Part shown: one piece after another, positions 1-49,857 of the stretch | Layout of the letters: the number at the start of each line of letters is the position of its first letter | How positions within the stretch are numbered: the first letter of the stretch is position 1 | Source: Escherichia phage JLBYU19 | Sequence record: OK272489.1 | Strand: one strand, 5' to 3' | DNA: 49,897 bases | The notes under the pieces: generated by a model | Seen by the model: the letters and a program-made list of their open reading frames with translations, nothing else | Told to the model about the DNA's origin: nothing | Database searches by the model: none | Made by a program: the position numbers and the translations under genes

Positions 1-1
1 T

Positions 2-931
2 TTATAGCAGTGATTCGGGCTTGTAGAGTTTTCTTTCTACGCCCTGTTTAAAATTATCGTTAACAGGCATCATTATGTCAAGCCCTCTTTCCTCTGCCGC
101 GATTATCACATCACGATCATCTTTCCGGCAGACTACGCGCATTCTTCTTTCTCCTTTATATCTATGCGCAACCATTTCAAGATTTGAAGGAGTAAAACAG
201 GCCCACACCTCTTGACCAGTTGATAAATGAACATGCTGAGAATCAACCCAATCAAGGCACAAATAGATCGTCTTATCTGTACTACCTGTTTTAACAACAG
301 ATCCGCGCGTGTAGTCGCGAGCTAAAAACCAATCCTTTCCATCCTCATCAATGAAAAGCACGTTACACATTTCATCATCCAGCCCGTCATCATGCACCAG
401 GTGACAAGGTAGCGCGTGAATGTATCGACCATCCTTGACGCCGCAATCATAATGACAATCTTCCGGCGGATATATCCCCTCATAAACGCTTAAAGGTGTG
501 CGATCGAATTTTAATGTTTTTGCCATCACTTTTTCGCAACATTCATGACTTGCCTGTTTCCCGAACGAGTAACCAGAAGAACGCGAAGCGCGTTTGTTTG
601 CTCTGATCCTGTAATCTTGTGGCACTTTTCCGAGGAAGCGGCCCAAAATGTTGATGGCCTCGCTGTAAGGTTCGCCAGTTAATTTCATTAACCAACCGAT
701 CCCCGTGTCGTTGCCGCACACGTTGCAGATCGCGCCGCCGTCGCCCTCTTCATTTAGCTTATCAGTCCATCTAAAACGATCCTTACCGCCGCAGTGTGGG
801 CAAGGCTGATGCTTTTTGTTGAAAACATCGCTATGCAGCCCGCAAATGCTGTGTAGTGCTTCACGCCATAACCCCTTCATATATGGCAAAACATCTTCTT
901 TCTGATAGGTCATAAAGTTTTCAGTATTCAT
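2..931 (-). CDS. DNA primase (zinc-ribbon + TOPRIM-like)
   Basis: 309 aa from ATG 931 (GAGG RBS); N-terminal CPHCGGKDRFRW zinc-binding motif typical of phage/plasmid primases; track ORF extension to 1009 lacks RBS. Confidence 0.75.
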   Translation of the reverse strand: MNTENFMTYQKEDVLPYMKGLWREALHSICGLHSDVFNKKHQPCPHCGGKDRFRWTDKLNEEGDGGAICNVCGNDTGIGWLMKLTGEPYSEAINILGRFLGKVPQDYRIRANKRASRSSGYSFGKQASHECCEKVMAKTLKFDRTPLSVYEGIYPPEDCHYDCGVKDGRYIHALPCHLVHDDGLDDEMCNVLFIDEDGKDWFLARDYTRGSVVKTGSTDKTIYLCLDWVDSQHVHLSTGQEVWACFTPSNLEMVAHRYKGERRMRVVCRKDDRDVIIAAEERGLDIMMPVNDNFKQGVERKLYKPESLL

Positions 932-986
932 GGCAAACCTCAATAAAAAAGCCCAGCAAATATTATCATTTCGCTGGGCCTTATCA

Positions 987-1463
987 TTAGCTATTCGTGC
1001 TGTTATCACCTTTGTAGAATCTTCCGCCTGGTTCGTAGTCTGAATTTTTGACTACGCGCAACATTTCGTATTTGTCGCAACGGGTAGTAAGAGGCTTGCC
1101 GTTAGAATCAAACCGCAGATCTGGACGACAAAACGAGGCGCGGTATCCTTTGCATCCATTATATTTGTAGTCGTTATGCACCTTTTGTGCTCCAGCGGCT
1201 GAAATCATACCACGCTTTCGCCATTGGTTAACGACTTGCTGAGATACGCGCAGACGTCGAGCCATAGCAGGAACACCGCCGTAATACTCGATCAGAATGT
1301 CAAGGCGAGATTTCAGGCTTGCTTTTACCTCATCTCGCAGGATAAGAAATCCGGTTCGGTGTTTTCGTGGCTTTTTGTCTTTACCTCGTCGCGTTCCGTT
1401 GTTACCGTTAATAGTGCGCTTGTCGATCTCACCCGTAGATACTGCAATTCGTGCATCTTTCAT
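987..1463 (-). CDS. putative HTH DNA-binding protein
   Basis: 158 aa, basic; RRLRVSQQVVNQWRKRG helix-turn-helix-like segment; GAGGTGA RBS; divergent from helicase gene. Confidence 0.5.
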   Translation of the reverse strand: MKDARIAVSTGEIDKRTINGNNGTRRGKDKKPRKHRTGFLILRDEVKASLKSRLDILIEYYGGVPAMARRLRVSQQVVNQWRKRGMISAAGAQKVHNDYKYNGCKGYRASFCRPDLRFDSNGKPLTTRCDKYEMLRVVKNSDYEPGGRFYKGDNSTNS

Positions 1464-1474
1464 CTAGTCACCTC

Positions 1475-1494
1475 ATAGCATTTTTTGTTAAAAC
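1475..1494 (+). promoter_or_regulatory. conserved junction element (variant ATAGCATTTTTTGTTAAAAC)
   Basis: TTGTTA at 1485-1490, TATTAT 22 nt downstream (1513-1518); precedes helicase gene. Confidence 0.55.
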
Positions 1495-1550
1495 AGTTTA
1501 TTGTAATGAGTCTATTATATACTCCAAATGGCATTTTTTAAAGGTTTAAG

Positions 1551-3548
1551 ATGATTCCAAATATCGAAAAACAAATATCAGCGTTAGGCGAGGCAGTAAT
1601 AAAAAGCATCCAAGAGCGATTCACGGTTGGCAATATAGTGCCTTATCCTTATCAGTGCGTTGCGTATGCCGAGATCGCAAAGCGCATGAAAAACTATGAG
1701 CATCCTTTCTTCGTTAAGGCTTCTGTGTCGGCTGGCAAAACTTTGATGTTTGCGATGGTTGCGGCGCAATGCCGCAAGATGGGATTGAAAATGATGGTCC
1801 TTGCTCGCCAGGCTGAAATTGTTGATCAGGATTCAGAAGAGATCAGCAATCTTGGCGTGCCAAACTCAATCTATTGCGCCGGACTGAAAACAAAAAGCGC
1901 ATACTTTCCGATCGTAGTCGGTTCTGAGGGCACTGTAGTAAACGGATTGTTTAAGTCGTTAGGTGATTATGTTCCGCACGTTATCGGTATTGATGAATGT
2001 CACCAGGTGGATTGGGAGGATCTCGCTGATGCGATAGAAAATAATGAATCTTACCAGCAGATGACCACTAAGAAGGATTTACCTGTACTGATTGGAGAAG
2101 AACAGCAATTTGATTCCAATGGCGATCCAATGTTCGGAACAGGGCGCACACAGTACACCGTAATAATCATGGAAATGATGCGCAGGTGTCGCGAGGCATA
2201 CGGGCACGAATTGCGAATATTCGGTATGACTGGATCTGAGTTTCGCGGCGTGGTTCCAATACTGGTTGAAGATAAGAACAAAAAGGGATTCTGGCGTGAG
2301 CAGGTGACTAACATAGACACAAACTACTTAATCAAATTTGGTTCTGTAGTGCCAACAAATTTCGGCGACGTAGGCGACCTGGGGTATGACCTTTCAGAGT
2401 TCGAAGCCAGTAGCGAGGATGGCGTTTCAGACTTTGACGCTAAAACATTGCGCAAGATGGAAGAAAAGATCCATCAAGACGCAACAATGACACAGAAAAT
2501 CATGGCTAAAGTCCATGAGATATGCAAAGACAGGAACGGAGTTTTAGTTACATGCGCAGGGGAAAGACACTGCAAGGAGGCCGCCGCCGCACTTCCGCCA
2601 GGCGTTGAATACAGGATCATAACTGGCAAGACTGGAGACAATCAGCGTAAAGAGTGGCTGAGGGAGGCATACGAGGGAAAAGTAAAATACATCTTCCAGG
2701 TACAGGCGCTTACCACTGGCGTTAACGTTCCGTTTTGGGATACTTCTGTAATACTGAGAAAGATAGGTTCTCTAACATTGCTTATCCAGCTTTTGGGGCG
2801 CGGTATGCGACTGCTTAAGCAATGGCACATTGAGCAGGGATTCAAGAAAAAAGATCATCTTGTATTGGATTTTGCCGGTACTATGGATGAGTTAGGGGAT
2901 TTGTATTTCGATCCAATCCTTGAGCAAGCGCAATTCCAAAAGAGATTTACAAACGGGAAAGAGCCTAAGACTTGTCCGATATGTGGAACGCTAAACAGCT
3001 TTTACGCTCGCCGATGTATGCACGTAGACGATAACGGGAAGAGATGCGAGCATTTTTGGACTTACAGAATTTGCGAGGACCAGGTAGATCCGAGAACGAA
3101 AAAGATAATCAAGCGCGGTTGCGGAACAAAAAACGACGTAGTGGCGAGAGTATGCCGTTGTTGCGATATTTCTCTTGTCGATCCTAACGAGAAGTTAAGC
3201 GGCAAGCACTACACCAAAAACGATTGGTGCAACGTTAAATCTTTCCGCGTTGATATGACGAAAAACCAGAAAGGAATTGTTTTTTGCTATGAGCTTGAGG
3301 CCAACGGCGACACATTCAAGGCATACGAAAGATTTTTCCCTGAGTCAGAAAGCAACATTTGCCGGACGATATGGAGAAAAATAGCATTGCAGCACATACC
3401 GGATCGCAAGGTTGCTGGTATGGTGGCGAGCTATAGAAATGCGCGTAAAATAATGTCATACGCTCATCACATCATGCCTCCTGTACGCGTAACGCATCGC
3501 AAAAACGGCAAAGGTGAGGATAACATTGCAAAACGGGAGTTTGTTTAA
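1551..3548 (+). CDS. SF2 DNA helicase (DEAD/DEAH-box) with C-terminal zinc-ribbon region
   Basis: 665 aa; Walker A-like SVSAGKT, motif II GIDECHQV, several CxxC pairs in C-terminal third. Confidence 0.85.
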   Translation: MIPNIEKQISALGEAVIKSIQERFTVGNIVPYPYQCVAYAEIAKRMKNYEHPFFVKASVSAGKTLMFAMVAAQCRKMGLKMMVLARQAEIVDQDSEEISNLGVPNSIYCAGLKTKSAYFPIVVGSEGTVVNGLFKSLGDYVPHVIGIDECHQVDWEDLADAIENNESYQQMTTKKDLPVLIGEEQQFDSNGDPMFGTGRTQYTVIIMEMMRRCREAYGHELRIFGMTGSEFRGVVPILVEDKNKKGFWREQVTNIDTNYLIKFGSVVPTNFGDVGDLGYDLSEFEASSEDGVSDFDAKTLRKMEEKIHQDATMTQKIMAKVHEICKDRNGVLVTCAGERHCKEAAAALPPGVEYRIITGKTGDNQRKEWLREAYEGKVKYIFQVQALTTGVNVPFWDTSVILRKIGSLTLLIQLLGRGMRLLKQWHIEQGFKKKDHLVLDFAGTMDELGDLYFDPILEQAQFQKRFTNGKEPKTCPICGTLNSFYARRCMHVDDNGKRCEHFWTYRICEDQVDPRTKKIIKRGCGTKNDVVARVCRCCDISLVDPNEKLSGKHYTKNDWCNVKSFRVDMTKNQKGIVFCYELEANGDTFKAYERFFPESESNICRTIWRKIALQHIPDRKVAGMVASYRNARKIMSYAHHIMPPVRVTHRKNGKGEDNIAKREFV

Positions 3549-3967
3549 TGGCTATAACTGATAAAGGCGATTATCTTGAGTTTTACGAAAGGGATCCAAC
3601 CGACACGAGAAGGGAAGTTAATCACCAGATAGATAGTTTTCAGTGGTTGACTTATGCTCATCCTTATTTGCTGGCGTGGCATACGGTAAACGAGAATGAG
3701 AAGTCTAAAGCAACGGCGATGATTGATCAGCAGTCCGGCTTGGTTAAGGGAGTAAGCGATTTCATCATCCTGATTGGTTTAAACGGAAAATACCCCTTTG
3801 CAGCGATTGAGATCAAACGAGTGAATAAATCAGGCAAGGGGAAAGCATCACCAGTCAGCGATGAACAAAAGGCTTTTTTGCGTCGCGTTCGCAGCTTAGG
3901 AGGATTCGCTGCGGTAGCCTACGGATTCAATCAGTTTAAGTTGGCTATTGAATACATGCTTAAATAG
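3548..3967 (+). CDS. VRR-NUC-like nuclease (PD-(D/E)xK)
   Basis: 139 aa; VSDFIIL...IEIKR core; start overlaps helicase stop (TAATG). Confidence 0.6.
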   Translation: MAITDKGDYLEFYERDPTDTRREVNHQIDSFQWLTYAHPYLLAWHTVNENEKSKATAMIDQQSGLVKGVSDFIILIGLNGKYPFAAIEIKRVNKSGKGKASPVSDEQKAFLRRVRSLGGFAAVAYGFNQFKLAIEYMLK

Positions 3968-3982
3968 CACTTTTTGTTAAAA
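3963..3982 (+). promoter_or_regulatory. conserved junction element AATAGCACTTTTTGTTAAAA
   Basis: exact consensus; contains stop of upstream gene; CATAAT at 4002-4007, 22 nt after TTGTTA. Confidence 0.6.
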
Positions 3983-4041
3983 CTGGCGCGATGGATTGCG
4001 CCATAATTCAATAACACGAGATAGCTTTTAATAGCGGAGAA

Positions 4042-4773
4042 ATGAAAATGGCTAAAGATATTTTAGATAAAGACACACATGACGCATTCGTTAGCTTTGA
4101 GCAGTTGGAGAGAGAAACGTTTATAGGGAATGCCCTTGCAACTGGAGGCCATTACCAGGCAGTAAAGCCAAATCAATATTATAAGGTAAGCGGAAACCGA
4201 TACGCTGGAAGCACTACGCCGGACGTTGTGCGCGATATGTGGAGCACGCCTCAAGAGATCGTGGAGTGGATGGAATCAGAATTTGGTGAATACGATCTCG
4301 ACGCGGCAGCAAGCCAGGAAAACGCAGTTTGCGAGAAGTTCTATAGCAAGGAAACAAACTGCTTAAAGCGTTGGTGGGGTAGCAACAAGCACGTATGGCT
4401 TAACCCGCCGTACAGCAACCCAACTCCATTTATCAAGAAAGCAATTGAGCAAATGGAGCACAACAACCAAATTGATGTTTTGTTGCCAGCAGACAACTCT
4501 ACAGCATGGTTTTATGAGGCACAGAAAAACGCGGCTGAAATCATCTGGATCACTGGCGAGGTTTACGAAGAGGGTGGAGTAGAATACTCCCGCACCGGAA
4601 GAATCGCCTTTGTGTCTGGATTGACTGGCGAGCCTGTGCAGGGCAACAACAAGGGAAGCGTGATTTTTGTCATGCGCAAACTTAAAGAAGGCGAGGAGCA
4701 GAAAACGCGATACGTTAAGATCAGCGATATTTGCCCTTCTGTAACCGAACGTCGCGCACGCAAACGGAGCTAA
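4042..4773 (+). CDS. dam: DNA N6-adenine methyltransferase (phage Dam-type)
   Basis: 243 aa; catalytic NPPY motif (WLNPPYS) and upstream DLDAAAS motif; GGAG RBS. Confidence 0.8.
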   Translation: MKMAKDILDKDTHDAFVSFEQLERETFIGNALATGGHYQAVKPNQYYKVSGNRYAGSTTPDVVRDMWSTPQEIVEWMESEFGEYDLDAAASQENAVCEKFYSKETNCLKRWWGSNKHVWLNPPYSNPTPFIKKAIEQMEHNNQIDVLLPADNSTAWFYEAQKNAAEIIWITGEVYEEGGVEYSRTGRIAFVSGLTGEPVQGNNKGSVIFVMRKLKEGEEQKTRYVKISDICPSVTERRARKRS

Positions 4774-4777
4774 CACG

Positions 4778-5035
4778 ATGGAAAAAGAGAGAAGCGTTTA
4801 TTTAAATGAAACTGGCGAGTGGTTGTTATTTCGCGCTATGGTGTGCGATGCACTTGATAAAAACCCTAACGTGAAAAAGATGATTGATTGCGATCCGTGG
4901 GAATTTTCAAGCGCATTAGATATGAGCTTTGAGGAGACAAGAAAACTCCCGCTTGAAAAATGGCACGAACAAATCAGAAATGACATGCAAGAGTTTGTCG
5001 ATTCGTGGAATTTTCAGCACGGAATGATCCACTAA
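4778..5035 (+). CDS. hypothetical protein
   Basis: 85 aa ORF; GGAG RBS; stop codon embedded in conserved junction element. Confidence 0.5.
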   Translation: MEKERSVYLNETGEWLLFRAMVCDALDKNPNVKKMIDCDPWEFSSALDMSFEETRKLPLEKWHEQIRNDMQEFVDSWNFQHGMIH

Positions 5036-5053
5036 TAGCACTTTTTGTTAAAA
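5034..5053 (+). promoter_or_regulatory. conserved junction element AATAGCACTTTTTGTTAAAA
   Basis: exact consensus; CATAAT at 5073-5078; GC dyad 5055-5073. Confidence 0.6.
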
Positions 5054-5110
5054 CGCCCGGCCTAGTGTCGGGCATAATTATTTCAACGAAGCAAACATGA
5101 GGAAATAAAA

Positions 5111-5290
5111 ATGGTGGTATTCGATAAACGCGCTTTTAACCTTGCTCAAGAAGTAGCAAAAGGTTCAGTGGATGGCGGTTCAAAGGAAGGATTCCAGTTT
5201 GATTGGGAGATCGCAATGTTTTTACTGAAAGTTGCATACGGTCACGCACCAATTGAACAAGCGGAGGCATATTATAAGCATGAAGGTTGA
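5111..5290 (+). CDS. hypothetical small protein (not in ORF track)
   Basis: 59 uninterrupted codons; GAGGA RBS 8 nt upstream; downstream of junction-element promoter at 5034. Confidence 0.4.
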   Translation: MVVFDKRAFNLAQEVAKGSVDGGSKEGFQFDWEIAMFLLKVAYGHAPIEQAEAYYKHEG

Positions 5291-5522
5291 GCAAGGAAGA
5301 GATGCGGTATGGAATCACGCTAAAGAATGCGGTATTGCCGACGATATAAAGAAGATCGCGCAATACTTTGATATTGCAGATGTGAGCATAATTAGCGGCG
5401 ACAAGATGACTTTCCTCAAGGAAAGGCCGCGAAAAATGGTAAGAGTTCCAGCAGTTCCAACAAAAATTGATTTCAAAGAGGCAATGGCTAAAATCCGAGA
5501 GCCTCGCAAATATTATAAATGA
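5280..5522 (+). CDS. hypothetical protein
   Basis: 80 aa from ATG 5280 (GGAGG 11 nt upstream); overlaps preceding small ORF by 11 nt. Confidence 0.45.
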   Translation: MKVEQGRDAVWNHAKECGIADDIKKIAQYFDIADVSIISGDKMTFLKERPRKMVRVPAVPTKIDFKEAMAKIREPRKYYK

Positions 5523-5616
5523 GGATAGTTATCATGTGGCGCTTGTTTGTTCTACCGTTACCCGTTATCATCGCTGTTACAGTTATGTACCATATAGTGA
5601 TGAGATAGGTAGCAGA

Positions 5617-6732
5617 ATGAAAAATGTAAAAATTACAGATGAGCAATTCAAGATCGAACGGGCGGCAGGTAAGACATATAAACAGATCGCTCAAGAGTAC
5701 GGAATGAATGTGAGAAGCGTCGAGCGTCGCGCGGCGCGTCTTGCAAAGCAAGGACAGCTATCGACCATCGGAGCGCCTGGTTTTGGTGTTCATGGTGAGT
5801 CAGTAATGACTGACAAAGAAGGAAATATAATCCTCAAGTGGACCAAAACCAGCAAGGATAAAGAGCAATTAGAGGCATTGATGCGCGCAGCTATGGAGGC
5901 GTTTAGCGAGGAAGTGCCGCGATTAGATCCAGTTCCATTGCAGGAGCGTAATTATAATGAAACGCTTTCATTGTATCCGATCTTTGACATGCACTTAGGC
6001 GCTATGGCCCATAAGCACGAATGCGGCGAAAATTGGGATACTGCGACGGCAGAGCGCGTTATGAATAACTTTATCGACTATGCTTTGATGTGCGCGCCGG
6101 ACAGCGAAAAGGCTGTTATCCTGATTGGTGGCGATATGCTTCATAGCGATGGCCTGGAGGCTGTGACACCTGCAAGCGGTCACGTACTTGATCAAGATAG
6201 CCGATATGCAAAATTGGTTTACGTTGCAATCCGTGCAATGCGTCGCGCAATTAATAAAATGCTGTTAAAGCATAAACATGTTGAGGTGCAGATCGTAGAG
6301 GGGAATCACGACCAATCAGGAATGATTTGGCTACGCGCAGCGATGGCGGCAGCATATGAGAACGAGCCGCGCGTTTACGTTGATGTTTCTCCTCGCGTTG
6401 TTCACCACACGCAATACGGAAAAACTTTCCTTGCGTACCATCACGGGCACACAGTGCGTAAACCGGAGACTTTGCTAATGATGTGCGCGTCAGATTGGCG
6501 GGAGGACTTCGGGAACTCAAAAACGATGTATGCGCACGTAGGGCACTGGCATCACCAGACCGTAACAGAAACGTCGCTTGGCATCGTGGAGGTGCATAGC
6601 ACCCTGGCGGCAAAAGACGCATACGCCGCGCGAGGTGGCTGGAGATCTCGACGCCGTGCGGCGGTTATCATTTACGACAAAGAGCATGGAGAGGTCGGGC
6701 GATTTGTCCACTATCCAGAAATGATGAATTGA
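5617..6732 (+). CDS. metallophosphoesterase (calcineurin-like) with N-terminal HTH-like segment
   Basis: 371 aa from ATG 5617; motifs DMH, GGDMLHSDG, GNHD, HHGH, GHWHH; N-terminal TYKQIAQEYGMNVRSVERRAARL. Confidence 0.7.
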   Translation: MKNVKITDEQFKIERAAGKTYKQIAQEYGMNVRSVERRAARLAKQGQLSTIGAPGFGVHGESVMTDKEGNIILKWTKTSKDKEQLEALMRAAMEAFSEEVPRLDPVPLQERNYNETLSLYPIFDMHLGAMAHKHECGENWDTATAERVMNNFIDYALMCAPDSEKAVILIGGDMLHSDGLEAVTPASGHVLDQDSRYAKLVYVAIRAMRRAINKMLLKHKHVEVQIVEGNHDQSGMIWLRAAMAAAYENEPRVYVDVSPRVVHHTQYGKTFLAYHHGHTVRKPETLLMMCASDWREDFGNSKTMYAHVGHWHHQTVTETSLGIVEVHSTLAAKDAYAARGGWRSRRRAAVIIYDKEHGEVGRFVHYPEMMN

Positions 6733-6777
6733 TGAATTTTTATTTAAATCAATGACAAATTAAATCAAAAACTTGCA

Positions 6778-6808
6778 AAGGGGCGGCGTTTGTCGCCTCT
6801 TTTTTTTG
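6778..6808 (+). terminator. intrinsic terminator after phosphoesterase gene
   Basis: GC-rich imperfect hairpin GGGGCGGCG/CGCCTC followed by T8. Confidence 0.5.
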
Positions 6809-6878
6809 TTTAATTTTTTTACCATGTGCGTTTATCATGCGGTCAATATATTGACTTTAATTAATATGGAGAATAAAA

Positions 6879-7094
6879 ATGAAAGATTTTATTAACGCAG
6901 CTACCGCCGGATCTGGCGGTTCATCTATCGCAAGCGCCGCTACAGGGCAGTTAACCATTGCTATTGCCAGTTTTATTTTAATGGCTGCATTCGGTGCGTG
7001 GGGCGCTTACCTTCGCTGGCGTGATAGTAAAAAATTCCACGAGGCGATCGAAAAAGGTGATATTCAAAAAGCTATTGAGATCAGGGGCAAGTAA
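6879..7094 (+). CDS. holin (single TMD, pinholin-like)
   Basis: 71 aa; one hydrophobic helix [19 protein letters not shown], charged C-terminus; immediately precedes endolysin. Confidence 0.6.
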
Positions 7095-7585
7095 TGAGCA
7101 TAAAGAACAGGGTAGCGGCTGCGGCCTTTGGCGTTGCGGTTGCCTTGACTTCTCCACTTCTTGAAGAGATCGAAGGGGTAAGATACAAGCCATACAAAGA
7201 TATTGCGGGGGTATGGACGGTTTGCGCAGGAATCACCGGACCAGATGTTATCCTGGGGAAAACGTACACTAAAAAAGAGTGTGATGCTTTGTTGGCTAAA
7301 CATATCCAGGTTGCTAAAAAAGAAGTTGACAAGCAGGTTAAGGTTGACATTCCTGATAGTATGCGTGCAGCAATGTACTCATTCACTTACAATGCAGGTG
7401 TGGGAGCTTTCAGAAATTCAACAATGCTGAAACTCATCAACCAGGGGAAATTAAACGAGGCTTGCGATCAGCTTTATCGTTGGACGTATTACCATAACCC
7501 CAAAACAGGAAAGCGCGAGAAGTCTAAAGGCTTGCTTAACAGGCGCAAGGTCGAATACAAATATTGCACAATGGATCTTAAATGA
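7094..7585 (+). CDS. endolysin (lysozyme fold) with SAR-like N-terminus
   Basis: 163 aa; [10 protein letters not shown]...CAGIT lysozyme catalytic region; Gly/Ala-rich weakly hydrophobic N-terminus [14 protein letters not shown]; start overlaps holin stop. Confidence 0.75.
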
Positions 7586-7977
7586 TGAAGAAATTTTTAC
7601 TTACACCAATCGCAATGGCGGTGATCTTGTCTGGATGTTCAAGCGTTACGCCACTGACCGGATTAATCGGCAGTAAGCCGGAAATCACAGCGCAGGCTGG
7701 CGCGGAGAACGTGAAGCAGACAGTTGGCATTACAGCAAGGCAGGACGCCAGCACAAAACAGGAAACCACAATAAAGGAATCTGCGGTTGACAAGGTGGAC
7801 ACGTCCAGCAAGAAGGATTTCACAACATCAACCATTCAGGCCAATACCATCAAGGCAGACAAAATTCAGGTCGTGCAGGGTAATAACGGCAGATGGTACG
7901 ATCCAGTAATCATATGCGTGGTTGTGTTTCTTGTGCTGATTTGTCTTTACTGGATAGAAAAGAAAAAGGAGGCTTAA
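7582..7977 (+). CDS. unimolecular spanin (u-spanin)
   Basis: 131 aa; N-terminal lipoprotein signal with lipobox LSGC and C-terminal [19 protein letters not shown]; last gene of lysis cassette. Confidence 0.7.
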
Positions 7978-7995
7978 CGCCTCCTTTATTTTTAT
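7967..7995. terminator. bidirectional intrinsic terminator between convergent lysis and early genes
   Basis: AGGAGGC-ttaac-GCCTCCT hairpin flanked by A/T tracts on both sides. Confidence 0.6.
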
Positions 7996-8216
7996 GCGTC
8001 GGGCCACATATGGCTTTCGTTTGTTGGCTTGTTCGATTCGTCGTACTGCCTTACTTCAATGCTGCAAGTGTCGCCGTATAGTCCTGCAATCTTGCGCTCA
8101 TTTTCAACCGCCGATTGCTCACTCCAGCCTGAATCCTTATCGTAAACTGTCGGGATTTCAGAAGAAGATCCATTTGCATGATTGTATACGCGAACTACTA
8201 AAAACTTGCTGGACAT
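7992..8216 (-). CDS. hypothetical protein
   Basis: 74 aa from ATG 8216 (AAGGA RBS); downstream of junction-element promoter 8279. Confidence 0.5.
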   Translation of the reverse strand: MSSKFLVVRVYNHANGSSSEIPTVYDKDSGWSEQSAVENERKIAGLYGDTCSIEVRQYDESNKPTNESHMWPDA

Positions 8217-8278
8217 AATTTTTCCTTTTTGGTTGTTTCGTTTCGATGAAACAAATATACCCGACACTAGGCCGGGCG

Positions 8279-8298
8279 TTTTAACAAAAAATGCTATT
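8279..8298 (-). promoter_or_regulatory. conserved junction element (AATAGCATTTTTTGTTAAAA on minus strand)
   Basis: one mismatch to consensus; followed on minus strand by same GC dyad as copy at 5034 and TATATT. Confidence 0.6.
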
Positions 8299-10387: not shown

Positions 10388-10440
10388 TCGTTAGCTTCTC
10401 CTTTGTGGGCCGTAAATTTTAACGGCCCAATACTACCCCG

Positions 10441-10460
10441 TTTTGTCAAAAAGTGCTATT
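10441..10460 (-). promoter_or_regulatory. conserved junction element (AATAGCACTTTTTGACAAAA on minus strand)
   Basis: TTGACA variant; TAAAAT 22 nt downstream inside GGGCCG/CGGCCC dyad; precedes 8807..10387. Confidence 0.6.
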
Positions 10461-11060: not shown

Positions 11061-11114
11061 GATTAGATCTCCTTTGTTTGTTCGATGTGATTATGCCAGG
11101 TTTTTACACCTGGC

Positions 11115-11134
11115 TTTTAACAAAAAGTGCTATT
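11115..11134 (-). promoter_or_regulatory. conserved junction element (minus strand)
   Basis: exact consensus on minus strand; stop of upstream gene embedded; CATAAT 22 nt downstream. Confidence 0.6.
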
Positions 11135-13748: not shown

Positions 13749-13804
13749 CTTTAAATCCTCGCTTGTTGTCGATGGGTGTAATATACCATTCAGGCGCACA
13801 TCGT

Positions 13805-13824
13805 TTTTAACAAAAAGTGCTATT
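13805..13824 (-). promoter_or_regulatory. conserved junction element (minus strand)
   Basis: exact consensus; TATATT 22 nt downstream; conserved leader shared with copies at 14311 and 15615. Confidence 0.6.
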
Positions 13825-14252: not shown

Positions 14253-14310
14253 TTTCAAATCCTCGCATTCGTTGTCGATGCGTGTAATGTACAGGAATGC
14301 GAGGATTGAG

Positions 14311-14330
14311 TTTTAACAAAAAGTGCTATT
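14311..14330 (-). promoter_or_regulatory. conserved junction element (minus strand)
   Basis: exact consensus; TACATT 22 nt downstream. Confidence 0.6.
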
Positions 14331-15555: not shown

Positions 15556-15614
15556 TGCTATCTCCTGAGCGGTTCGTTTCGATGTGTGTAATGTACCCGA
15601 TCAGACGGCCTGAG

Positions 15615-15634
15615 TTTTAACAAAAAGTGCTATT
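15615..15634 (-). promoter_or_regulatory. conserved junction element (minus strand)
   Basis: exact consensus; TACATT 22 nt downstream; faces away from AT-rich control region. Confidence 0.6.
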
Positions 15635-15663
15635 TGACGGTTAGCGCCAGGATTGTGATCGAA

Positions 15664-17599: not shown

Positions 17600-17805
17600 T
17601 CCTGAATGTAGCATATGCTAACCCTCGCGGCCGCAATATATACGGCTTTAAGGTTGGCGCGATGGTCAACGCCAGGATAAACGAAAAAGGCGTATTAGTT
17701 GTCAAGTCACCTAAAACTGGCATTGATATGCACATCAAGGAGAACGGCGGAAGATTGTTTATCAGGTCAATGTCTGGTCAAACGCTCGCAACTTTCACCA
17801 AATAG
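17596..17805 (+). CDS. hypothetical protein
   Basis: 69 aa; ATGA overlap with upstream gene; stop inside junction element. Confidence 0.45.
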   Translation: MILNVAYANPRGRNIYGFKVGAMVNARINEKGVLVVKSPKTGIDMHIKENGGRLFIRSMSGQTLATFTK

Positions 17806-17819
17806 CACTTTTGCAAAAA
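17801..17819 (+). promoter_or_regulatory. conserved junction element (variant AATAGCACTTTTGCAAAAA)
   Basis: TTGCAA variant; TATAGT at 17839-17844 inside GGGCTT/AAGCCC dyad. Confidence 0.55.
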
Positions 17820-17875
17820 CAGATTATCGGGCTTGCTGTATAGTAAGCCCATCAACAACAAGCGAGGATTAAATC

Positions 17876-18532: not shown

Positions 18533-19123
18533 ATGAAACGAGACATTATTATCCTTAATGGGCCGCCTGGCTGTGGAAAGGACACTATTGCAGCTTACCT
18601 AACGGGCCATCGTTACCCAGCGGTTAAGGCGTCATTCAAGCAGCCGATGTTCGATATTGCGTTTTCCATGCTGGGCGTGTACAGATACGATGAATTTATG
18701 GACCTGTACAACGACCGAGAACAAAAAGAAAAGCCTCAAGTTATTTTGGGCGGCAAGTCACCTCGACAATTCATGATCTGGATTAGCGAGGATGTAATGA
18801 AGCCAGTTTTTGGGGATCACTATTTCGGGCGTCGAATGGTTGAAGAGATTCACGAGATGTACCGAGATTTGGCGGTTGTGATCAGTGATGGCGGATTCCC
18901 CGAAGAAATCAAGCCGCTCGTTAAGGCGGGGCATGAGGTGCATATTTGCCGATTGCATCGCGACGGCTTCACGTTTGCTGGCGATTCGAGAGACTACATT
19001 GACCTGAGCGGTTATCACTATCGAATCCATCACTATGACTTCCACTTGCAGGACGGCAAGCCGGAACTGGCTGTAAACGAGATCGTCAATACTGTCAAAT
19101 GGAAGCACACACAGATTAAATAG
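18533..19123 (+). CDS. P-loop nucleotide kinase (dNMP kinase-like)
   Basis: 196 aa; N-terminal Walker A ILNGPPGCGKDT. Confidence 0.6.
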   Translation: MKRDIIILNGPPGCGKDTIAAYLTGHRYPAVKASFKQPMFDIAFSMLGVYRYDEFMDLYNDREQKEKPQVILGGKSPRQFMIWISEDVMKPVFGDHYFGRRMVEEIHEMYRDLAVVISDGGFPEEIKPLVKAGHEVHICRLHRDGFTFAGDSRDYIDLSGYHYRIHHYDFHLQDGKPELAVNEIVNTVKWKHTQIK

Positions 19124-19137
19124 CACGAATTGCTAAA
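19119..19137 (+). promoter_or_regulatory. conserved junction element (variant AATAGCACGAATTGCTAAA)
   Basis: TTGCTA variant; TATAAT at 19158-19163; GC dyad 19139-19157. Confidence 0.55.
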
Positions 19138-19193
19138 CGCGGGGTTATCGGCCCCGCTATAATGCGCACATCAACAATCAAGAGGAAATCACA

Positions 19194-20123: not shown

Positions 20124-20414
20124 ATGGCAAACAAAACTTACCGCAAACTACTGGTTAACGCTTTTGAAAACATCGCGCAGTGTAACAAGTGGAACGACTC
20201 TAAACACTCGCCAGTCACAATGAAGCGCGCAGGATTCAAAAATGCTCGTTCATGGGCGCGAGCTTTCGCAGCTTGCTATATGCCGGATGGCGGACTAGGG
20301 GTGATGAACGATTTTTTGATCAACATGATAGAGGAAGCGGCGCGAGAGGATCGACCGCTGACACAGCGAGATTTTGACGACTTCGCGCGCGATGAGCTTT
20401 ACTATCTGAGCTAA
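20124..20414 (+). CDS. hypothetical protein
   Basis: 96 aa; AAGGGGA RBS; stop inside junction element. Confidence 0.45.
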   Translation: MANKTYRKLLVNAFENIAQCNKWNDSKHSPVTMKRAGFKNARSWARAFAACYMPDGGLGVMNDFLINMIEEAAREDRPLTQRDFDDFARDELYYLS

Positions 20415-20432
20415 TAGCACTTTTTGTTAAAA
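20413..20432 (+). promoter_or_regulatory. conserved junction element AATAGCACTTTTTGTTAAAA
   Basis: exact consensus; TAAAGT at 20452-20457 within AAGGGCA/TGCCCTT dyad. Confidence 0.6.
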
Positions 20433-20489
20433 CTTCCGCAAGGGCATTTGGTAAAGTGCCCTTATTGAAGCGAAACAGAGGAAAGCGCA

Positions 20490-23067: not shown

Positions 23068-24635
23068 TGATCATATGGGAAGATTTGACGGCGGCGCAAA
23101 AGCGAGCCATTAAAGAAATCAGTGAGCATTCATTCGAAAAGATGATCAGAATCTGGTTTCAGTTATTGCAGGGGCAAAAATTCCAGAGCAACTGGCATTT
23201 TAGCTTATTGTGCAGTGAGGTAGAGAAGATCATCAATGGAGAGTCGCAGAATGTGATTTTCAACATTACGCCAGGTAGCGGTAAGACTGAGATTTTCTCG
23301 ATCCACATGTCACCCTACGCGTCATTGAAAAGTCGGAAGGTGAGAAACCTTAACCTTTCGTTTAGTGATGGACTTGTCCAGCAAAACAGCAACAGGATAA
23401 AGGAGATTATCGGTTCTCCTGAGTGGCAAGAGCTATGGCCAGGAAAACTGGCAAAGGCGAGCGCAAAAGATCTCATAGTTACGGATGGCGGCAAGGTTAA
23501 ATTGCAAGTTAACTCACGTTCTATTGGCGGACAGGTAACAGGTTTGCGTGGCGGCTATATGGACGATGGTTTTACTGGTATGCTGGTTCTGGACGATCCA
23601 GACAAGCCGGATGATATGCTTTCTAAGGTCAAGCGTGAGGCGATCCACATGCGGTTAAAAAACACAGTGCGATCGCGTCGAATGAAAGACACTACGCCGA
23701 TTGTTATGGTGCAACAGCGACTACACGTTAATGATTCCACCTGGTTCATGCTTAATGGCGGAATGGGTGGTATTGAGTTTAAAGTCGTGAGCATTCCGGC
23801 GCTGGTTACGAAAGAATACCGCGAATCGCTTCCTGATTGGTTGAAGCCTGAATTTGATCGTGATGTGCTGTCAAGTAAGCCAGTGATGATAGATGGCGTT
23901 GCTCATTATTCATTTTGGCCTGCGAAGGAAAGCGCGGAGGAGTTGCTTGCATTGCGCAATGCAGATCCTTACACGTTCTCCAGCCAATACCAACAGCAAC
24001 CAATCGCGCTGGGCGGGAACGTGTTTAAAACAGAGTGGTTCCAGTATTACGGCAGCGGCGAAAAATGCGCACTTCCTAAACCGGATCGCTTTGAATACAC
24101 ATTTATTACTGGAGATACCGCGCAGAAGGCCGGAGAGCTTAACGACTATTCTGTTTTTTGTTATTGGGGGATGTATAAGAATCGCGTTTACTTCATTGAT
24201 GGCATTCGCGGAAAGTGGGAAGCGCCGGATCTTGAATTAAATTTTATTGCCTTCGTTAATCAGTGCTGGAAGCGCAATAAGGAGTGTGGCAGCTTGCGAC
24301 GTATCCACATTGAGGATAAGGCCAGCGGCACTGGTTTGATTCAGGGGGCCAAAAAGAAGATCCCGATTGATATAAATCCCGTTCAGCGAAGCAACGACAA
24401 GGTAACGAGAGCAATGGACGCCGCGCCAGTAATGAGGGCCGGACGTGTGGCACTGCCAGAAAATCACCCAATGCTGCCTGAGATACTGGCAGAGGTTGCA
24501 GCATTCACTTTTGATGATTCTCATCCCCATGATGATATTGTCGATAATATAGTTGATGCTGTTAACGTCGAAATGAACTTGGCAGATGATCCGGTGGCAA
24601 GGATGAAAAAGCTGGCTGGTCTACGCAATAAATAG
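23067..24635 (+). CDS. terminase large subunit
   Basis: 522 aa; Walker A-like NITPGSGKT; position and size. Confidence 0.8.
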   Translation: MIIWEDLTAAQKRAIKEISEHSFEKMIRIWFQLLQGQKFQSNWHFSLLCSEVEKIINGESQNVIFNITPGSGKTEIFSIHMSPYASLKSRKVRNLNLSFSDGLVQQNSNRIKEIIGSPEWQELWPGKLAKASAKDLIVTDGGKVKLQVNSRSIGGQVTGLRGGYMDDGFTGMLVLDDPDKPDDMLSKVKREAIHMRLKNTVRSRRMKDTTPIVMVQQRLHVNDSTWFMLNGGMGGIEFKVVSIPALVTKEYRESLPDWLKPEFDRDVLSSKPVMIDGVAHYSFWPAKESAEELLALRNADPYTFSSQYQQQPIALGGNVFKTEWFQYYGSGEKCALPKPDRFEYTFITGDTAQKAGELNDYSVFCYWGMYKNRVYFIDGIRGKWEAPDLELNFIAFVNQCWKRNKECGSLRRIHIEDKASGTGLIQGAKKKIPIDINPVQRSNDKVTRAMDAAPVMRAGRVALPENHPMLPEILAEVAAFTFDDSHPHDDIVDNIVDAVNVEMNLADDPVARMKKLAGLRNK

Positions 24636-24650
24636 CACTAATTGCTAAAA
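24631..24650 (+). promoter_or_regulatory. conserved junction element (variant AATAGCACTAATTGCTAAAA)
   Basis: atypical: TATAAT only 5 nt downstream (24656-24661), then a terminator hairpin before portal gene. Confidence 0.4.
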
Positions 24651-24664
24651 AGTTATATAATCAA

Positions 24665-29232: not shown

Positions 29233-29257
29233 CTGATAGCATAAAAAAACATTGCAC

Positions 29258-29276
29258 GTTTAACAAAAAGTGCTAT
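29258..29276 (-). promoter_or_regulatory. conserved junction element, oriented away from adjacent capsid gene
   Basis: plus strand reads GTTTAACAAAAAGTGCTAT; flanked by inverted repeat TGATAGCA (29234) / TGCTATCA (29271). Confidence 0.45.
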
Positions 29277-32970: not shown

Positions 32971-33010
32971 CATTCCTGTAAAATCAATCTATCAAATAAA
33001 TTAATTCCAC

Positions 33011-33029
33011 TTTTAACAAAAAGTGCTAT
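33011..33029 (-). promoter_or_regulatory. conserved junction element, oriented away from adjacent tail chaperone gene
   Basis: plus strand reads TTTTAACAAAAAGTGCTAT immediately followed by AAGGAG RBS of 33044 gene. Confidence 0.45.
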
Positions 33030-38914: not shown

Positions 38915-38962
38915 TGCATTTATAATGTGCAAACCAAGAAACAGCACAAAAGGTTAAAAGTC

Positions 38963-43732: not shown

Positions 43733-43788
43733 CTTCAATACTCCTTAGTTGTTGTTGGATGCAACTATACACGATCTTGGGCATCGCG

Positions 43789-43807
43789 TTTAGCAAAAAG
43801 TGCTATT
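43789..43807 (-). promoter_or_regulatory. conserved junction element (AATAGCACTTTTTGCTAAA on minus strand)
   Basis: TATAGT 21-22 nt downstream on minus strand; precedes Cor-like lipoprotein operon. Confidence 0.55.
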
Positions 43808-49807: not shown

Positions 49808-49826
49808 AAATAGCACTTTTTGCTAA
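49808..49826 (+). promoter_or_regulatory. conserved junction element, oriented away from adjacent tail fiber gene
   Basis: AAATAGCACTTTTTGCTAA directly abutting AGGAGG RBS of minus-strand fiber gene; second AATAGCA at 49838. Confidence 0.4.
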
Positions 49827-49857
49827 TGACAATGCAGATAATAGCATTTTCAAGTGC

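What the first reader, a model, noticed from the sequence alone, without database searches (positions are those of the whole stretch)
3963..4007. Fixed promoter-like architecture: element, GC dyad, then a -10-like hexamer exactly 22 nt after TTGTTA
In 13 co-oriented copies a TATAAT-like hexamer starts exactly 22 nt after the TTGTTA core (TATTAT 1513, CATAAT 4002, CATAAT 5073, TATAGT 17839, TATAAT 19158, TAAAGT 20452, and TATATT/TACATT/TAAAAT/CATAAT for minus-strand copies). That spacing is too long for TTGTTA to act as a -35, and the hexamer at true -35 distance is AAAAC-like. The spacer nearly always holds a 5-7 bp GC-rich inverted repeat (e.g. 3985-4002, 5055-5073, 19139-19157). Read on the opposite strand, each dyad is followed by TTTTAAC and could terminate antisense transcription. 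This resembles activator-dependent or appropriated host promoters.
Basis: partly seen in the sequence, partly recalled or inferred. Interest (0 to 1): 0.6.

Follow-up and report, generated by a model that had tools for sequence, protein, structure and literature searches.

The report
Marbox-type promoters in T1-like phage
A 44-base unit repeated about 13 times in this T1-like coliphage is a promoter whose upstream half is a near-perfect binding site ("marbox") for the host stress regulators MarA/SoxS/Rob, placed as in the host's own class II promoters; this suggests, without proving it, that the phage uses a host activator to switch on its early genes.

Summary
The window is a Warwickvirus (Drexlerviridae, T1-like). 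It carries 18 copies of ATAGCACTTTTTGTTAAAAC, 13 of them strong. A -10-like hexamer sits exactly 18 nt after the 20-nt box (22 nt after TTGTTA), with G at -14 and a conserved CA start 7 nt downstream.

The box was published in 2024 as a "21-nt direct repeat" of phage TLS with unknown function. I find that it matches the E. coli marbox (GCAHWWWWTGYYAAA; AYnGCACnnWnnRYYAAAYn). It lies in forward orientation over the -35 position, with the box-to-hexamer spacing I read in E. coli micF, nfo and sodA (18 nt). That is class II MarA/SoxS/Rob architecture.

The phage has no detectable AraC-type protein. Its only predicted regulator is Cro-like. That regulator is absent from an unrelated phage, C130_2, which uses the same module.

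The GC dyads are real: mean z = -3, with compensatory changes in relatives. However, they are sense-strand RNA hairpins (G·U pairs, GNRA/UNCG loops). They most likely act as terminators or stabilisers of the upstream transcript, squeezed into the promoter's free positions. They are not antisense terminators, and only 5 of 13 lie wholly in the spacer.

The activator's identity is inferred, not shown. Host Rob/MarA/SoxS is favoured; a phage protein is the rival.

The parts
3964..3983 (+). Focal 20-nt box ATAGCACTTTTTGTTAAAAC (marbox-like: RE1 GCAC at 3967-3970, RE2 TAAA at 3978-3981). Its TAG (3965-3967) is the stop codon of the upstream VRR-NUC gene 3548-3967.
3984..4003 (+). Sense-strand hairpin TGGCGCGA-TGGA-TTGCGCCA: 8 pairs including one G.U, MFE -12.1 kcal/mol, z -2.8. 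The 3' arm runs into the first two bases of the -10 hexamer.
4002..4007 (+). -10 hexamer CATAAT, 18 nt after the box. Predicted start about 4013-4014. The Dam methyltransferase gene starts at 4042.
1475..1518 (+). Module (box to TATTAT) upstream of the helicase gene 1551-3548. No GC hairpin. Its -10 overlaps the -10 of the divergent regulator promoter.
5035..5078 (+). Module with a 7-bp hairpin (5055-5073) and CATAAT. Flagged as sense-strand terminator-like.
8254..8297 (-). Module with the same spacer hairpin as copy 5035, and TATATT.
10416..10459 (-). Module upstream of the second helicase gene (8807-10387). The hairpin arms flank the TAAAAT hexamer.
11090..11133 (-). Module with a 7-pair hairpin in the spacer, and CATAAT.
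13780..13823 (-). Module with TATATT and only a weak hairpin.
14286..14329 (-). Module with TACATT. A 10-bp long-range dyad, CCTCGCATTC...GAATGCGAGG, reaches the Shine-Dalgarno sequence.
15590..15633 (-). First module of the leftward early arm (TACATT), at the edge of the 570-bp control region.
17802..17844 (+). Variant module: the box is one T shorter, the hexamer is TATAGT, and the hairpin flanks the -10.
19120..19163 (+). Module with a GAATT-type box (0 mismatches to the marbox consensus), a hairpin in the spacer, and TATAAT.
20414..20457 (+). Module with TAAAGT. The hairpin flanks the -10.
43764..43806 (-). Module with a 17-nt spacer and TATAGT, upstream of the three leftward genes 42568-43738.
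24632..24651 (+). Box without a hexamer at +18, directly followed by a strong terminator, between terL and portal.
29257..29276 (-). Box in reverse orientation inside the late operon, upstream of the major capsid gene. Its position is conserved in T1 and TLS. Role unexplained.
33010..33029 (-). Box in reverse orientation between the major tail and tape-measure chaperone genes. Conserved in T1. Role unexplained.
38941..38960 (+). Weak box-like site inside the tail-tip gene. Probably not a promoter.
49810..49829 (+). Degenerate box (RE2 is TAAT) with no hexamer at +18.
987..1463 (-). Gene for the only predicted phage transcription factor: 158 aa, Cro-like helix-turn-helix, conserved in about 824 phage records. 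It is the rival candidate for the box-binding protein.
1514..1542 (-). Sigma-70-like promoter TTTAAA-17-TATAAT for the regulator gene, face to face with the helicase module.
   Evidence: TLS P57

Best explanation
Each unit is a compact sigma-70 promoter of the class II, activator-dependent type. A 20-bp asymmetric box (ATAGCAC-N5-GYTAAAAC) occupies about -50 to -31 and replaces the -35 hexamer. After 18 unconstrained bases come a -10 hexamer (TAnAnT, preceded by G at -14) and a CA start site 7 nt downstream. A conserved A/C-rich leader (CATCGAAACGAA), a ribosome-binding site and the gene follow.

In sequence, orientation and distance to the -10, the box is a consensus marbox. The activator is therefore most likely a host protein of the MarA/SoxS/Rob family. 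Rob is the default candidate because it is made constitutively. It would bind as a monomer, displace sigma region 4 from the -35 position and recruit RNA polymerase.

The GC dyad is a separate, overlaid signal. It is an RNA hairpin on the sense strand, formed in transcripts coming from the upstream gene. It would terminate, attenuate or stabilise those transcripts. Its arms sit wherever the promoter leaves bases free: in the spacer, or in the spacer plus the first bases after the -10.

Shown: the anatomy, the match to the marbox, the spacing, the conservation and the covariation. Inferred: who binds the box, that transcription starts at the CA, and what the hairpin does.
For: Box and marbox. 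The phage consensus GCACTTTTTGTTAAA fits the ChIP-derived MarA motif 5'-GCAHWWWWTGYYAAA-3' at 15 of 15 positions. It has 0-2 mismatches to AYnGCACnnWnnRYYAAAYn (consensus quoted from memory) in 17 of 18 copies. Sites with <=1 mismatch number 15 in the window and 20 in T1, against about 0.9 in shuffles.

Variation. In 124 distinct modules from Drexlerviridae, variation follows the marbox code: position 2 is Y in 119, position 10 is W in 124, position 13 is R in 123, position 14 is C in 61 and T in 60, position 15 is Y in 111. Conserved A1, C7, T11 and A17-19 lie outside the TAGCA/TGCTA half-palindrome.

Architecture. I read four E. coli class II promoters directly: micF ACAGCACTGAATGTCAAAAC + 18 nt + TAGAAT, nfo + 18, sodA + 18, fumC + 19. 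All have GCAC promoter-distal, as in the phage. With the conserved CA as -1/+1, the phage GCAC lies at -47 to -44. The Rob-RNAP-micF cryo-EM paper reports contacts to -47G and -45A, and describes the B site overlapping the -35. Class II is defined as a forward marbox over the -35.

Promoter reality. The hexamer sits at one offset only. G at -14 occurs in 113 of 124 modules, and C and A at -1/+1 in 95 and 102 of 124. Ordinary sigma-70 promoters are not enriched: 26 found against 37.8 expected.

Host rather than phage factor. No MarA/SoxS/Rob homologue was found by tblastn (best E 0.22). No AraC domain was found in 20 ORFs. The phage regulator has a Cro fold, not an AraC fold. The complete genome of Escherichia phage C130_2 (Hungariovirus, not Drexlerviridae) has 8 marbox sites against 0.35 expected. 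Six of them carry a hexamer at +18, and the regulator HMM finds nothing (best E 0.61, against 1e-79 in the window). The same module also occurs in the T4-like Klebsiella phage KP15, where it is annotated as a 'putative middle promoter', and in the terminal repeat of the T5-like Providencia phage PR1. In KP15 no flanking T1 genes accompany it. All these hosts are Enterobacterales. Rob is constitutive and abundant.

Hairpin. Searches give z = -3, 103 of 105 cells paired, 4 of 7 pairs with compensatory changes including the first base of the hexamer, and G.T 11 against A.C 0. The T1 record annotates the homologous dyads as rho-independent terminators.
Against: No binding or transcription data exist, so the identity of the activator rests on sequence resemblance.

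Position 19 is A in 100 of 124 boxes where the consensus has Y. micF also has A there.

The phages do encode a conserved early regulator. Its gene lies next to a box, in a layout that would make sense for autoregulation.

C130_2 shares two small proteins of unknown function with Drexlerviridae (phrog_2676 and phrog_2817). Either could be an unrecognised activator.

Rob is largely sequestered in unstressed cells.

From memory: classical T1-resistant mutants map to fhuA and tonB, not rob. No single host factor can therefore be essential.

Most window hairpins lack a U-tract; only 2 pass the terminator scan. Termination may therefore be weak.

The 124 modules were selected with GCA, AA and hexamer filters, and many are orthologues, so they are not independent.
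Confidence: 0.6

Rival explanations
1. A phage-encoded activator binds the box, and the likeness to the marbox is coincidence or mimicry. The candidate is the early Cro-like regulator (987-1463) or a small unknown protein. The regulator would be made from its own sigma-70 promoter. It would then turn on about 13 middle promoters and shut off its own promoter through the box downstream of its start site.
For: The regulator is conserved in essentially all Drexlerviridae (824 records). It has an HTH and its own sigma-70-like promoter overlapping a box promoter (TLS P57). Box variants with TTGCTA form a TAGCA-N5-TGCTA inverted repeat centred near -42, which is typical for a dimeric class II activator. 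From general knowledge, phage middle promoters usually have phage activators (T4 MotA, Mu Mor). Two small proteins are shared with C130_2.
Against: I estimate the chance of a 13/14 match to the marbox code plus the class II register at roughly 1e-3. Conserved positions A1, C7, T11 and A17-19 break the symmetry, and position 14 is C or T in equal shares while its mirror G4 never varies. C130_2 uses the module without the regulator. The KP15 and PR1 loci examined carry the module, and no regulator homologue was found in them. The PR1 copies lie in the terminal repeat. In T5-like phages that region enters the cell and is expressed first (general knowledge).
Confidence: 0.25
2. The promoter needs no activator. 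The box would be an UP-like, A/T-rich upstream element that, together with G-14 and a good -10, is read by RNA polymerase alone. This is one of the options raised in the TLS paper.
For: T- and A-tracts lie at -43 to -32. G at -14 occurs in 113 of 124 modules and the -10 hexamers are near consensus. The TLS authors suggested UP-like elements.
Against: The most conserved positions are GCAC and TAAA, not the A/T tracts. The middle of the box varies freely (TTTTT, GAATT, TAATT). From general knowledge, UP elements have no invariant G/C core.
Confidence: 0.07
3. The boxes are roadblock or 'stoperator' sites, or parts of terminators, rather than promoters. The dyads would terminate antisense transcription.
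For: The boxes are co-oriented with transcription and lie between genes. Three or four boxes lack a usable hexamer or face the wrong way in the late operon (24632, 29276, 33029, 49810). On the opposite strand the hairpins are followed by GTTTTAAC.
Against: The fixed 18-nt distance to a -10 hexamer, G-14, the CA start and a leader plus RBS downstream all point to a promoter. The hairpins are better on the sense strand and use G.U pairs. No antisense terminator passes the scan.
Confidence: 0.06

Closest known systems
E. coli class II MarA/SoxS/Rob (marbox) promoters: micF, nfo, sodA, fumC, lpxC P2
   Same: A 20-bp asymmetric box with GCAC and YAAA one helical turn apart. Forward orientation over the -35 position. 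18-19 nt to the -10 hexamer. No -35 consensus. micF and the phage box are identical at 15 of 20 positions, including AAAAC.
   Different: The phage boxes are much closer to consensus than the four host sites I read, and nearly identical to one another. There are 13-20 per 50-kb genome. They begin inside the stop codon of the upstream gene and carry an RNA hairpin in or around the spacer. Binding by MarA/SoxS/Rob is untested.
The '21-nt direct repeats' (DR1-18) of phage TLS (German, Kropinski et al., PHAGE 2024, PMC11447400)
   Same: This is the same element: aaATAGCACnnnTTGnTAAAA, co-oriented with genes, about 76 nt upstream of start codons, also stated to occur in T1, Rtp and Rogue1.
   Different: That paper left the function open, offering stoperator, enhancer site or UP-like element. 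In the text I read it did not report the fixed -10 hexamer, the start site, the marbox identity or the hairpin covariation.
T4 middle promoters (MotA box plus AsiA, sigma appropriation)
   Same: A normal -10 hexamer. The -35 is replaced by an activator box. Used by a virulent phage for post-early genes. KP15 annotators labelled one such module a 'putative middle promoter'.
   Different: From general knowledge, the MotA box is centred at -30, 11-13 bp from the -10. Here the box ends 18 bp upstream and extends to -50. No dedicated MotA/AsiA search was run. The ORFs I scanned and the annotated relative show only a Cro-like regulator.
T1 'transcriptons': terminator-flanked modules (Roberts et al. 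2004, as quoted in PMC11447400 and annotated in NC_005833)
   Same: The dyads homologous to those at 3984-4003 and 5055-5073 are annotated as rho-independent terminators in T1.
   Different: The terminator hairpin lies inside the promoter of the next unit, and its stem can include the first base of the -10 hexamer.

Membership tests
Class II marbox (MarA/SoxS/Rob-dependent) promoter | 20-bp asymmetric marbox with RE1 GCAC and RE2 YAAA separated by 7 A/T-rich bp (AYnGCACnnWnnRYYAAAYn; GCAHWWWWTGYYAAA) | tested here: met
   0-2 mismatches in 17 of 18 window copies. The fit to the ChIP motif is 15/15. Variation in 124 modules follows the code except at position 19.
Class II marbox (MarA/SoxS/Rob-dependent) promoter | Forward orientation (GCAC distal) overlapping the -35 position | tested here: met
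   The box occupies -50 to -31 relative to the conserved CA start. The orientation is the same as in micF.
Class II marbox (MarA/SoxS/Rob-dependent) promoter | 18-19 bp between the marbox and the -10 hexamer | tested here: met
   18 nt in 10/15 window sites and 14/20 T1 sites. In E. coli: micF, nfo and sodA 18, fumC 19, read directly. For nfo, sodA and fumC the hexamer assignment is my own reading.
Class II marbox (MarA/SoxS/Rob-dependent) promoter | Binding of MarA, SoxS or Rob and activator-dependent transcription by E-sigma70 | not testable with these tools
   Needs EMSA or footprinting, in vitro transcription and mutant hosts.
TLS/T1 21-nt direct repeat (DR) family | aaATAGCACnnnTTGnTAAAA, intergenic, co-oriented with the downstream gene, about 76 nt before the start codon | tested here: met
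   13 strong copies. From box start to start codon is 72-86 nt where a start codon was called.
Intrinsic (rho-independent) terminator (for the dyad) | GC-rich hairpin directly followed by a U-tract on the transcribed strand | tested here: inconclusive
   The hairpin criterion is met. A U-rich tail is present only in copies 5035 and 8297 and in some relatives (GGGTTTTGTATTAT). On the antisense strand no copy passes.
T4-type middle promoter (MotA/AsiA) | MotA box centred at -30, 11-13 bp upstream of the -10 | tested here: not met
   The box ends 18 bp upstream of the hexamer and its core lies at -47 to -32.
UP element | A/T-rich -40 to -60 element without a conserved G/C core, read by alpha-CTD | tested here: not met
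   The GCAC core is near-invariant and G13 is present in 121/124, while the A/T middle varies. G4, C5 and A6 were required by the selection filter. They are also constant in the unfiltered lists.
Mycobacteriophage L5 stoperators | Asymmetric repressor sites within transcription units that block elongation, with no fixed relation to a -10 | tested here: not met
   The boxes have a fixed 18-nt relation to a -10 hexamer and a start site. A few orphan boxes (29276, 33029) could still act in this way.

The most novel reading that the evidence does not exclude
Drexlerviridae, together with scattered genes of unrelated Enterobacterales phages (Hungariovirus C130_2, T4-like KP15, T5-like PR1), have handed promoter recognition for most early and middle transcription units to the host's MarA/SoxS/Rob stress regulators, through consensus class II marboxes. 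Phage development would then be wired to the host's envelope and antibiotic stress state (bile salts, fatty acids, salicylate, redox drugs). The many consensus boxes on replicating phage DNA would also titrate these regulators away from the host resistance regulon.
Probability: 0.5. Interest if true: 0.85.

Novelty: new variant of a known kind. Interest (0 to 1): 0.72.

Why it matters
T1-like phages are among the commonest coliphages and Klebsiella phages and are used in therapy cocktails, yet how they are transcribed is unknown. A 2024 reannotation of TLS found only three sigma-70 promoters and an unexplained 21-nt repeat.

Reading that repeat as a class II marbox gives a concrete hypothesis that can be tested at once. 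It predicts the promoters and start sites of about 13 transcription units.

It also links phage gene expression to the regulators that control multidrug efflux and porins. If correct, inducers of Rob, MarA or SoxS (bile salts, salicylate, paraquat, some antibiotics) should change the yield of T1-like phages, and the phage should perturb the host mar regulon. That bears on phage-antibiotic combinations.

The modules are also short (about 75 bp) promoter-leader cassettes that appear to be portable and could be useful in engineering. The overlap of a terminator hairpin with a promoter spacer, down to covariation with the first base of the -10, shows unusually tight packing of signals.

Tried and rejected
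- TTGTTA as a -35. Rejected: the spacer would be 22 nt.
- A phage MarA-like protein. tblastn with MarA, SoxS and Rob-N, plus a three-sequence HMM on all six-frame ORFs, found nothing (best tblastn E 0.22, whose HMM table was cut in the output). Pfam scans on 20 ORFs found no HTH_18/AraC domain.
- The 158-aa regulator as a hidden two-HTH MarA mimic. The AF2 model (pLDDT 85) and Foldseek gave only Cro-type matches, best E 0.013 (Xfaso 1 and N15 Cro).
- Vibrio phage Vc1 as a natural test in a host outside Enterobacterales. It carries the same boxes and the regulator, and its host assignment cannot be checked, so it is uninformative.
- A palindromic-operator reading (TAGCA-N5-TGCTA). Kept only as a rival because the conserved positions are asymmetric.
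- A sigma-32-like CCCCAT after the hexamer. Rejected: there is no TTGAAA at the right distance.
- Rfam and tRNA scans of the window: nothing found.
- Literature. No paper links marboxes, Rob or SoxS to T1-like phages. One search was wasted on settings that were too loose. Three papers did not contain the information I looked for: the 20-bp marbox consensus and any promoter or repeat analysis of KanT1. The 20-bp consensus is therefore quoted from memory.
- Homology of the genes downstream of the PR1 and KP15 modules to T1 genes: none.
Full report
WHAT THE WINDOW IS. Bases 3000-9000 are 98.6% identical to Escherichia phages NorthRox, Sip, FritzSarasin and tiwna. FritzSarasin (Bas04) is classified as Drexlerviridae, Tempevirinae, Warwickvirus. 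The window is therefore essentially a whole T1-like genome. It has a leftward early arm (about 15600 down to 8000) and a rightward early arm followed by the late arm (16200 to 42500). A replication and lysis block occupies 1-8000, in both orientations.

CHECK OF THE OBSERVATION. At 3964-4007 the + strand reads ATAGCACTTTTTGTTAAAAC TGGCGCGATGGATTGCGC CATAAT. The 20-mer occurs 13 times with <=3 mismatches, against 0.01 expected. A PWM scan adds weaker copies at 17802, 19120, 24632, 38941 and 49810.

I scored every offset from 8 to 29 nt after the box for a -10-like hexamer (A2, T6, >=4/6). Offset 18 scores 10 of 15 in the window and 14 of 20 in T1. Every other offset scores 0-4. The fixed spacing is real.

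The dyad claim is only partly right. Nine of the 13 strong copies have a stable local hairpin. Five of these sit wholly in the spacer and four straddle the -10. Four copies have little or no local hairpin.

PRIOR LITERATURE. The element has been described. The 2024 reannotation of phage TLS reports a 21-nt direct repeat, aaATAGCACnnnTTGnTAAAA, at 21 sites. The repeats are co-oriented with genes and lie about 76 nt upstream of start codons. Conservation is highest at ATAGCAC and TAAAA, and the middle is variable. The paper says the repeat is also seen in T1, Rtp and Rogue1. It leaves the function open, offering stoperator, enhancer site or UP-like element, and finds only three sigma-70 promoters. 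A full-text search for the motif finds no other relevant paper.

WHAT THE BOX IS. The pattern is a conserved GCAC, about 7 variable A/T-rich bases, then TAAA. That is the signature of the marbox, the site of the monomeric two-HTH activators MarA, SoxS and Rob. The phage consensus GCACTTTTTGTTAAA fits the ChIP-derived MarA motif 5'-GCAHWWWWTGYYAAA-3' at every position. Against the 20-bp consensus AYnGCACnnWnnRYYAAAYn (quoted from memory of Martin et al. 1999), 17 of 18 copies have 0-2 mismatches. Sites with <=1 mismatch number 15 in the window, 20 in T1 and 8 in C130_2. Composition shuffles give 0.95, 0.85 and 0.35.

I collected 124 distinct modules from the window, T1, FritzSarasin, Vc1 and 35 IMG/VR loci. 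Their variation obeys the degenerate code:
- position 2: T 101, C 18
- position 10: A 56, T 68
- position 13: G 121
- position 14: C 61, T 60
- position 15: T 108
The only systematic departure is A instead of Y at position 19. micF shares that departure.
Caveat: the modules were selected by requiring GCA, AA and a hexamer, and many are orthologues.

ARCHITECTURE. Class II marbox promoters have a forward marbox overlapping the -35. I read four of them directly from E. coli MG1655:
- micF: ACAGCACTGAATGTCAAAAC, 18 nt, TAGAAT, with the annotated RNA start 8 nt after the hexamer
- nfo: ATCGCATAAACCACTACATC, 18 nt, TATCAT
- sodA: ACGGCATTGATAATCATTTT, 18 nt, TATAAT
- fumC: ATGGCACGAAAGACCAAACA, 19 nt, TAATAA
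(for the last three the hexamer assignment is my own reading).

The phage has the same orientation and 18 nt. The modules also show G at -14 (113/124) and C-A at the sixth and seventh bases after the hexamer (95 and 102 of 124). That is the usual pyrimidine-purine start. Taking that A as +1 puts the box at -50 to -31 and GCAC at -47 to -44. The Rob-RNAP-micF cryo-EM paper reports Rob contacts to -47G and -45A. It describes the B site over the -35, with Rob occluding sigma region 4. Ordinary sigma-70 promoters are not enriched in the first 20 kb: 26 against 37.8 expected. One perfect one lies at 16189-16216.

WHO BINDS THE BOX. The phage has no detectable MarA-type protein. It does have one predicted regulator (987-1463, minus strand, 158 aa). 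This protein has a basic N-terminus, a Cro/YdaS-like HTH and a conserved Cys-containing C-terminus. The AF2 model has pLDDT 85.5, and its best structural matches are Cro proteins. It is present in about 824 phage records. It has its own sigma-70-like promoter, whose -10 overlaps that of the helicase module on the other strand. It is therefore a serious rival.

Three points argue against the regulator.
- Asymmetry of conservation. A1, C7, T11 and A17-19 are conserved but have no mirror partners. G4 never varies, yet its mirror, position 14, is C or T in equal shares.
- My rough estimate of about 1e-3 for the chance that an unrelated site matches the marbox code at 13 of 14 specified positions, in the class II register.
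- The module occurs where the regulator does not. Escherichia phage C130_2 (Hungariovirus, complete 41,775 bp) has full modules at 3760, 4736, 37099, 13857, 10710 and 1345. An HMM of the regulator finds nothing there (best E 0.61, against 1e-79 in the window and 6e-68 in T1).

One perfect T1-type module sits in the T4-like Klebsiella phage KP15, where the depositors called it a putative middle promoter. Its flanking genes are not T1-like. Two modules sit in the 10.5-kb terminal repeat of the T5-like Providencia phage PR1. In T5-like phages that region is the first DNA to enter the cell (general knowledge).

All these hosts are Enterobacterales, which carry marbox-binding regulators. Rob is constitutive and abundant, though regulated by sequestration and released by bile salts and fatty acids.

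Points in the other direction:
- C130_2 shares a replication module and two tiny unknown proteins (phrog_2676, phrog_2817) with Drexlerviridae. A phage factor therefore cannot be excluded.
- From memory, T1-resistant E. coli mutants map to fhuA and tonB, not rob. Any host dependence must be redundant or partial.

My weights are about 0.6 for a host factor, 0.25 for a phage factor, and the remainder for no activator or another role.

THE DYAD. Over 31 promoter-type sites in the window and T1, the region from box position 17 to 16 nt past the hexamer folds to a mean of -11.8 kcal/mol. Shuffling only the free positions gives -5.3 (mean z -3.0). The sense strand is the more stable one in 24 of 31.

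I examined two orthologous promoters, upstream and downstream of the Dam operon, in 35 related contigs (61-100% Dam identity). The hairpin persists while its sequence changes: GGCGC/GCGCC, GCCGGGA/TCCCGGC, GCCGGAT/ATCCGGC, GCCCGGC/GTCGGGC, GCCCCGC/GTGGGGC and GCCAGGC/GTCTGGC.

For the downstream promoter, 103 of 105 cells pair, against 32-50 when the partner is slid. Four of 7 pairs show double changes. One of these is G-C to A-T between spacer position 2 and the first base of the -10 hexamer, which explains CATAAT versus TATAGT. There are 11 G.T cells and no A.C cell. I assigned the registers from each sequence's own predicted fold.

Loops are often GAAA, UUCG or UACG. Some lineages have a complete terminator, CCGC-TTCG-GCGG-GTTTTGTATTAT, in which the -10 hexamer is part of the U-rich tail. 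T1's depositors annotated the homologous dyads as rho-independent terminators. In the window only copies 5035 and 8297 pass a terminator scan, both on the sense strand.

The dyad is therefore a sense-strand RNA hairpin belonging to the upstream transcript. It would act as a terminator, attenuator or 3' stabiliser. Its arms occupy positions the promoter does not need. That explains why it lies in the spacer in some copies and around the -10 in others. The antisense-terminator reading is not supported.

COMPACTNESS. The TAG at box positions 2-4 is the stop codon of the upstream gene in 8 copies, and a TAA abuts the box in 3 more. Each intergenic region of about 75 nt thus holds a stop codon, activator site, hairpin, -10, start site, conserved leader (CATCGAAACGAA) and RBS.

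UNEXPLAINED. Boxes at 29276 and 33029 point against the late operon. Their positions are conserved in T1 (15086, 18850) and TLS (DR7). Boxes at 24632 and 49810 have no hexamer. The 570-bp control region 15640-16215 holds five TAATCA repeats, which might be the real target of the Cro-like regulator.

VERDICT. The element itself is published, but its function is not. I found no paper linking it to the marbox. Experiments are needed to identify the activator.

Noticed in passing
window 15640-16215: A 570-bp non-coding region lies between the two early arms. It holds five TAATCA repeats (15662-15757), an AT-rich stretch (15900-15960), CGGCGGATTGC twice (16046, 16077) and a perfect sigma-70 promoter TTGACA-16-TATAAT at 16189-16216. 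It could be an origin, or the operator region for the Cro-like regulator.
   Followed up: partly
window 29257-29276 (-) and 33010-33029 (-): Two well-conserved boxes point against the direction of the late operon, upstream of the major capsid gene and after the major tail gene. The same positions and orientation occur in T1 (15086, 18850) and TLS (DR7). Their role is unknown; antisense RNA or roadblock are possibilities.
   Followed up: partly
L165 (Escherichia phage C130_2, NC_048067) 3760+, 4736+, 37099+, 13857-, 10710-, 1345-: A phage of another genus (Hungariovirus, GC about 56%) uses the same box + 18 nt + TATAGT module. It has 8 marbox sites against 0.35 expected and lacks the Drexlerviridae Cro-like regulator. 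It shares only a replication/recombination gene set (30-47% aa identity), an endolysin (48%), methyltransferases (about 33%) and two tiny unknown proteins.
   Followed up: yes
L164 (Klebsiella phage KP15, NC_014036) locus 1543-1600 (-); L163 (Providencia phage PR1, NC_041913) 7473 and 7817 (+): Single or duplicated T1-type modules occur in a T4-like phage and a T5-like phage. In KP15 the module is annotated as a 'putative middle promoter'. In PR1 both copies lie inside the terminal repeat. The downstream genes have no T1 homologues, so the promoter cassette itself appears to move or to converge.
   Followed up: partly
window 5055-5073 (+) and 8259-8277 (-): Two modules on opposite strands, convergent around the lysis cassette, have identical 18-nt spacers (GCCCGGCCTAGTGTCGGG). 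This suggests recent duplication or gene conversion. A bidirectional terminator lies between them at 7965-7987.
   Followed up: no
window 1513-1519: The palindromic TATTATA serves as the -10 for the helicase box promoter on the + strand and for the regulator's sigma-70 promoter on the - strand. The two promoters overlap face to face and should exclude each other. The same layout occurs in T1 (36444-36490) and TLS (DR11/P57).
   Followed up: partly
window, 8 copies (e.g. 3965-3967, 19121-19123, 10458-10456): The TAG inside the box (positions 2-4) is the stop codon of the upstream gene, so coding sequence and activator site overlap.
   Followed up: yes
window, +1 to about +15 of each module (e.g. 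13773-13759, 15583-15569): A conserved A/C-rich leader, CATCGA(A/C)AACGAA, lies between the predicted start and the RBS. It is shared by Drexlerviridae, C130_2 and KP15 modules. Its function is unknown; an unstructured translation leader is one possibility.
   Followed up: no
window 14297-14306 and 14263-14272 (-): A 10-bp inverted repeat, CCTCGCATTC...GAATGCGAGG, spans the -10 and start of module 14329 and includes the Shine-Dalgarno sequence of the downstream gene. In read-through transcripts it would sequester the RBS.
   Followed up: no
L042 (Vibrio phage Vc1, NC_054898): A Drexlerviridae record assigned to Vibrio cholerae carries the same boxes, hairpins and regulator, with coliphage-like GC (44.8%). 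Either the host assignment is doubtful or the box-binding factor is not restricted to Enterobacterales.
   Followed up: partly
window 11806-12333 (-): An HNH endonuclease gene (Pfam HNH_3, E 1e-14) lies in the leftward early arm, next to the Dcm-like methyltransferase.
   Followed up: no
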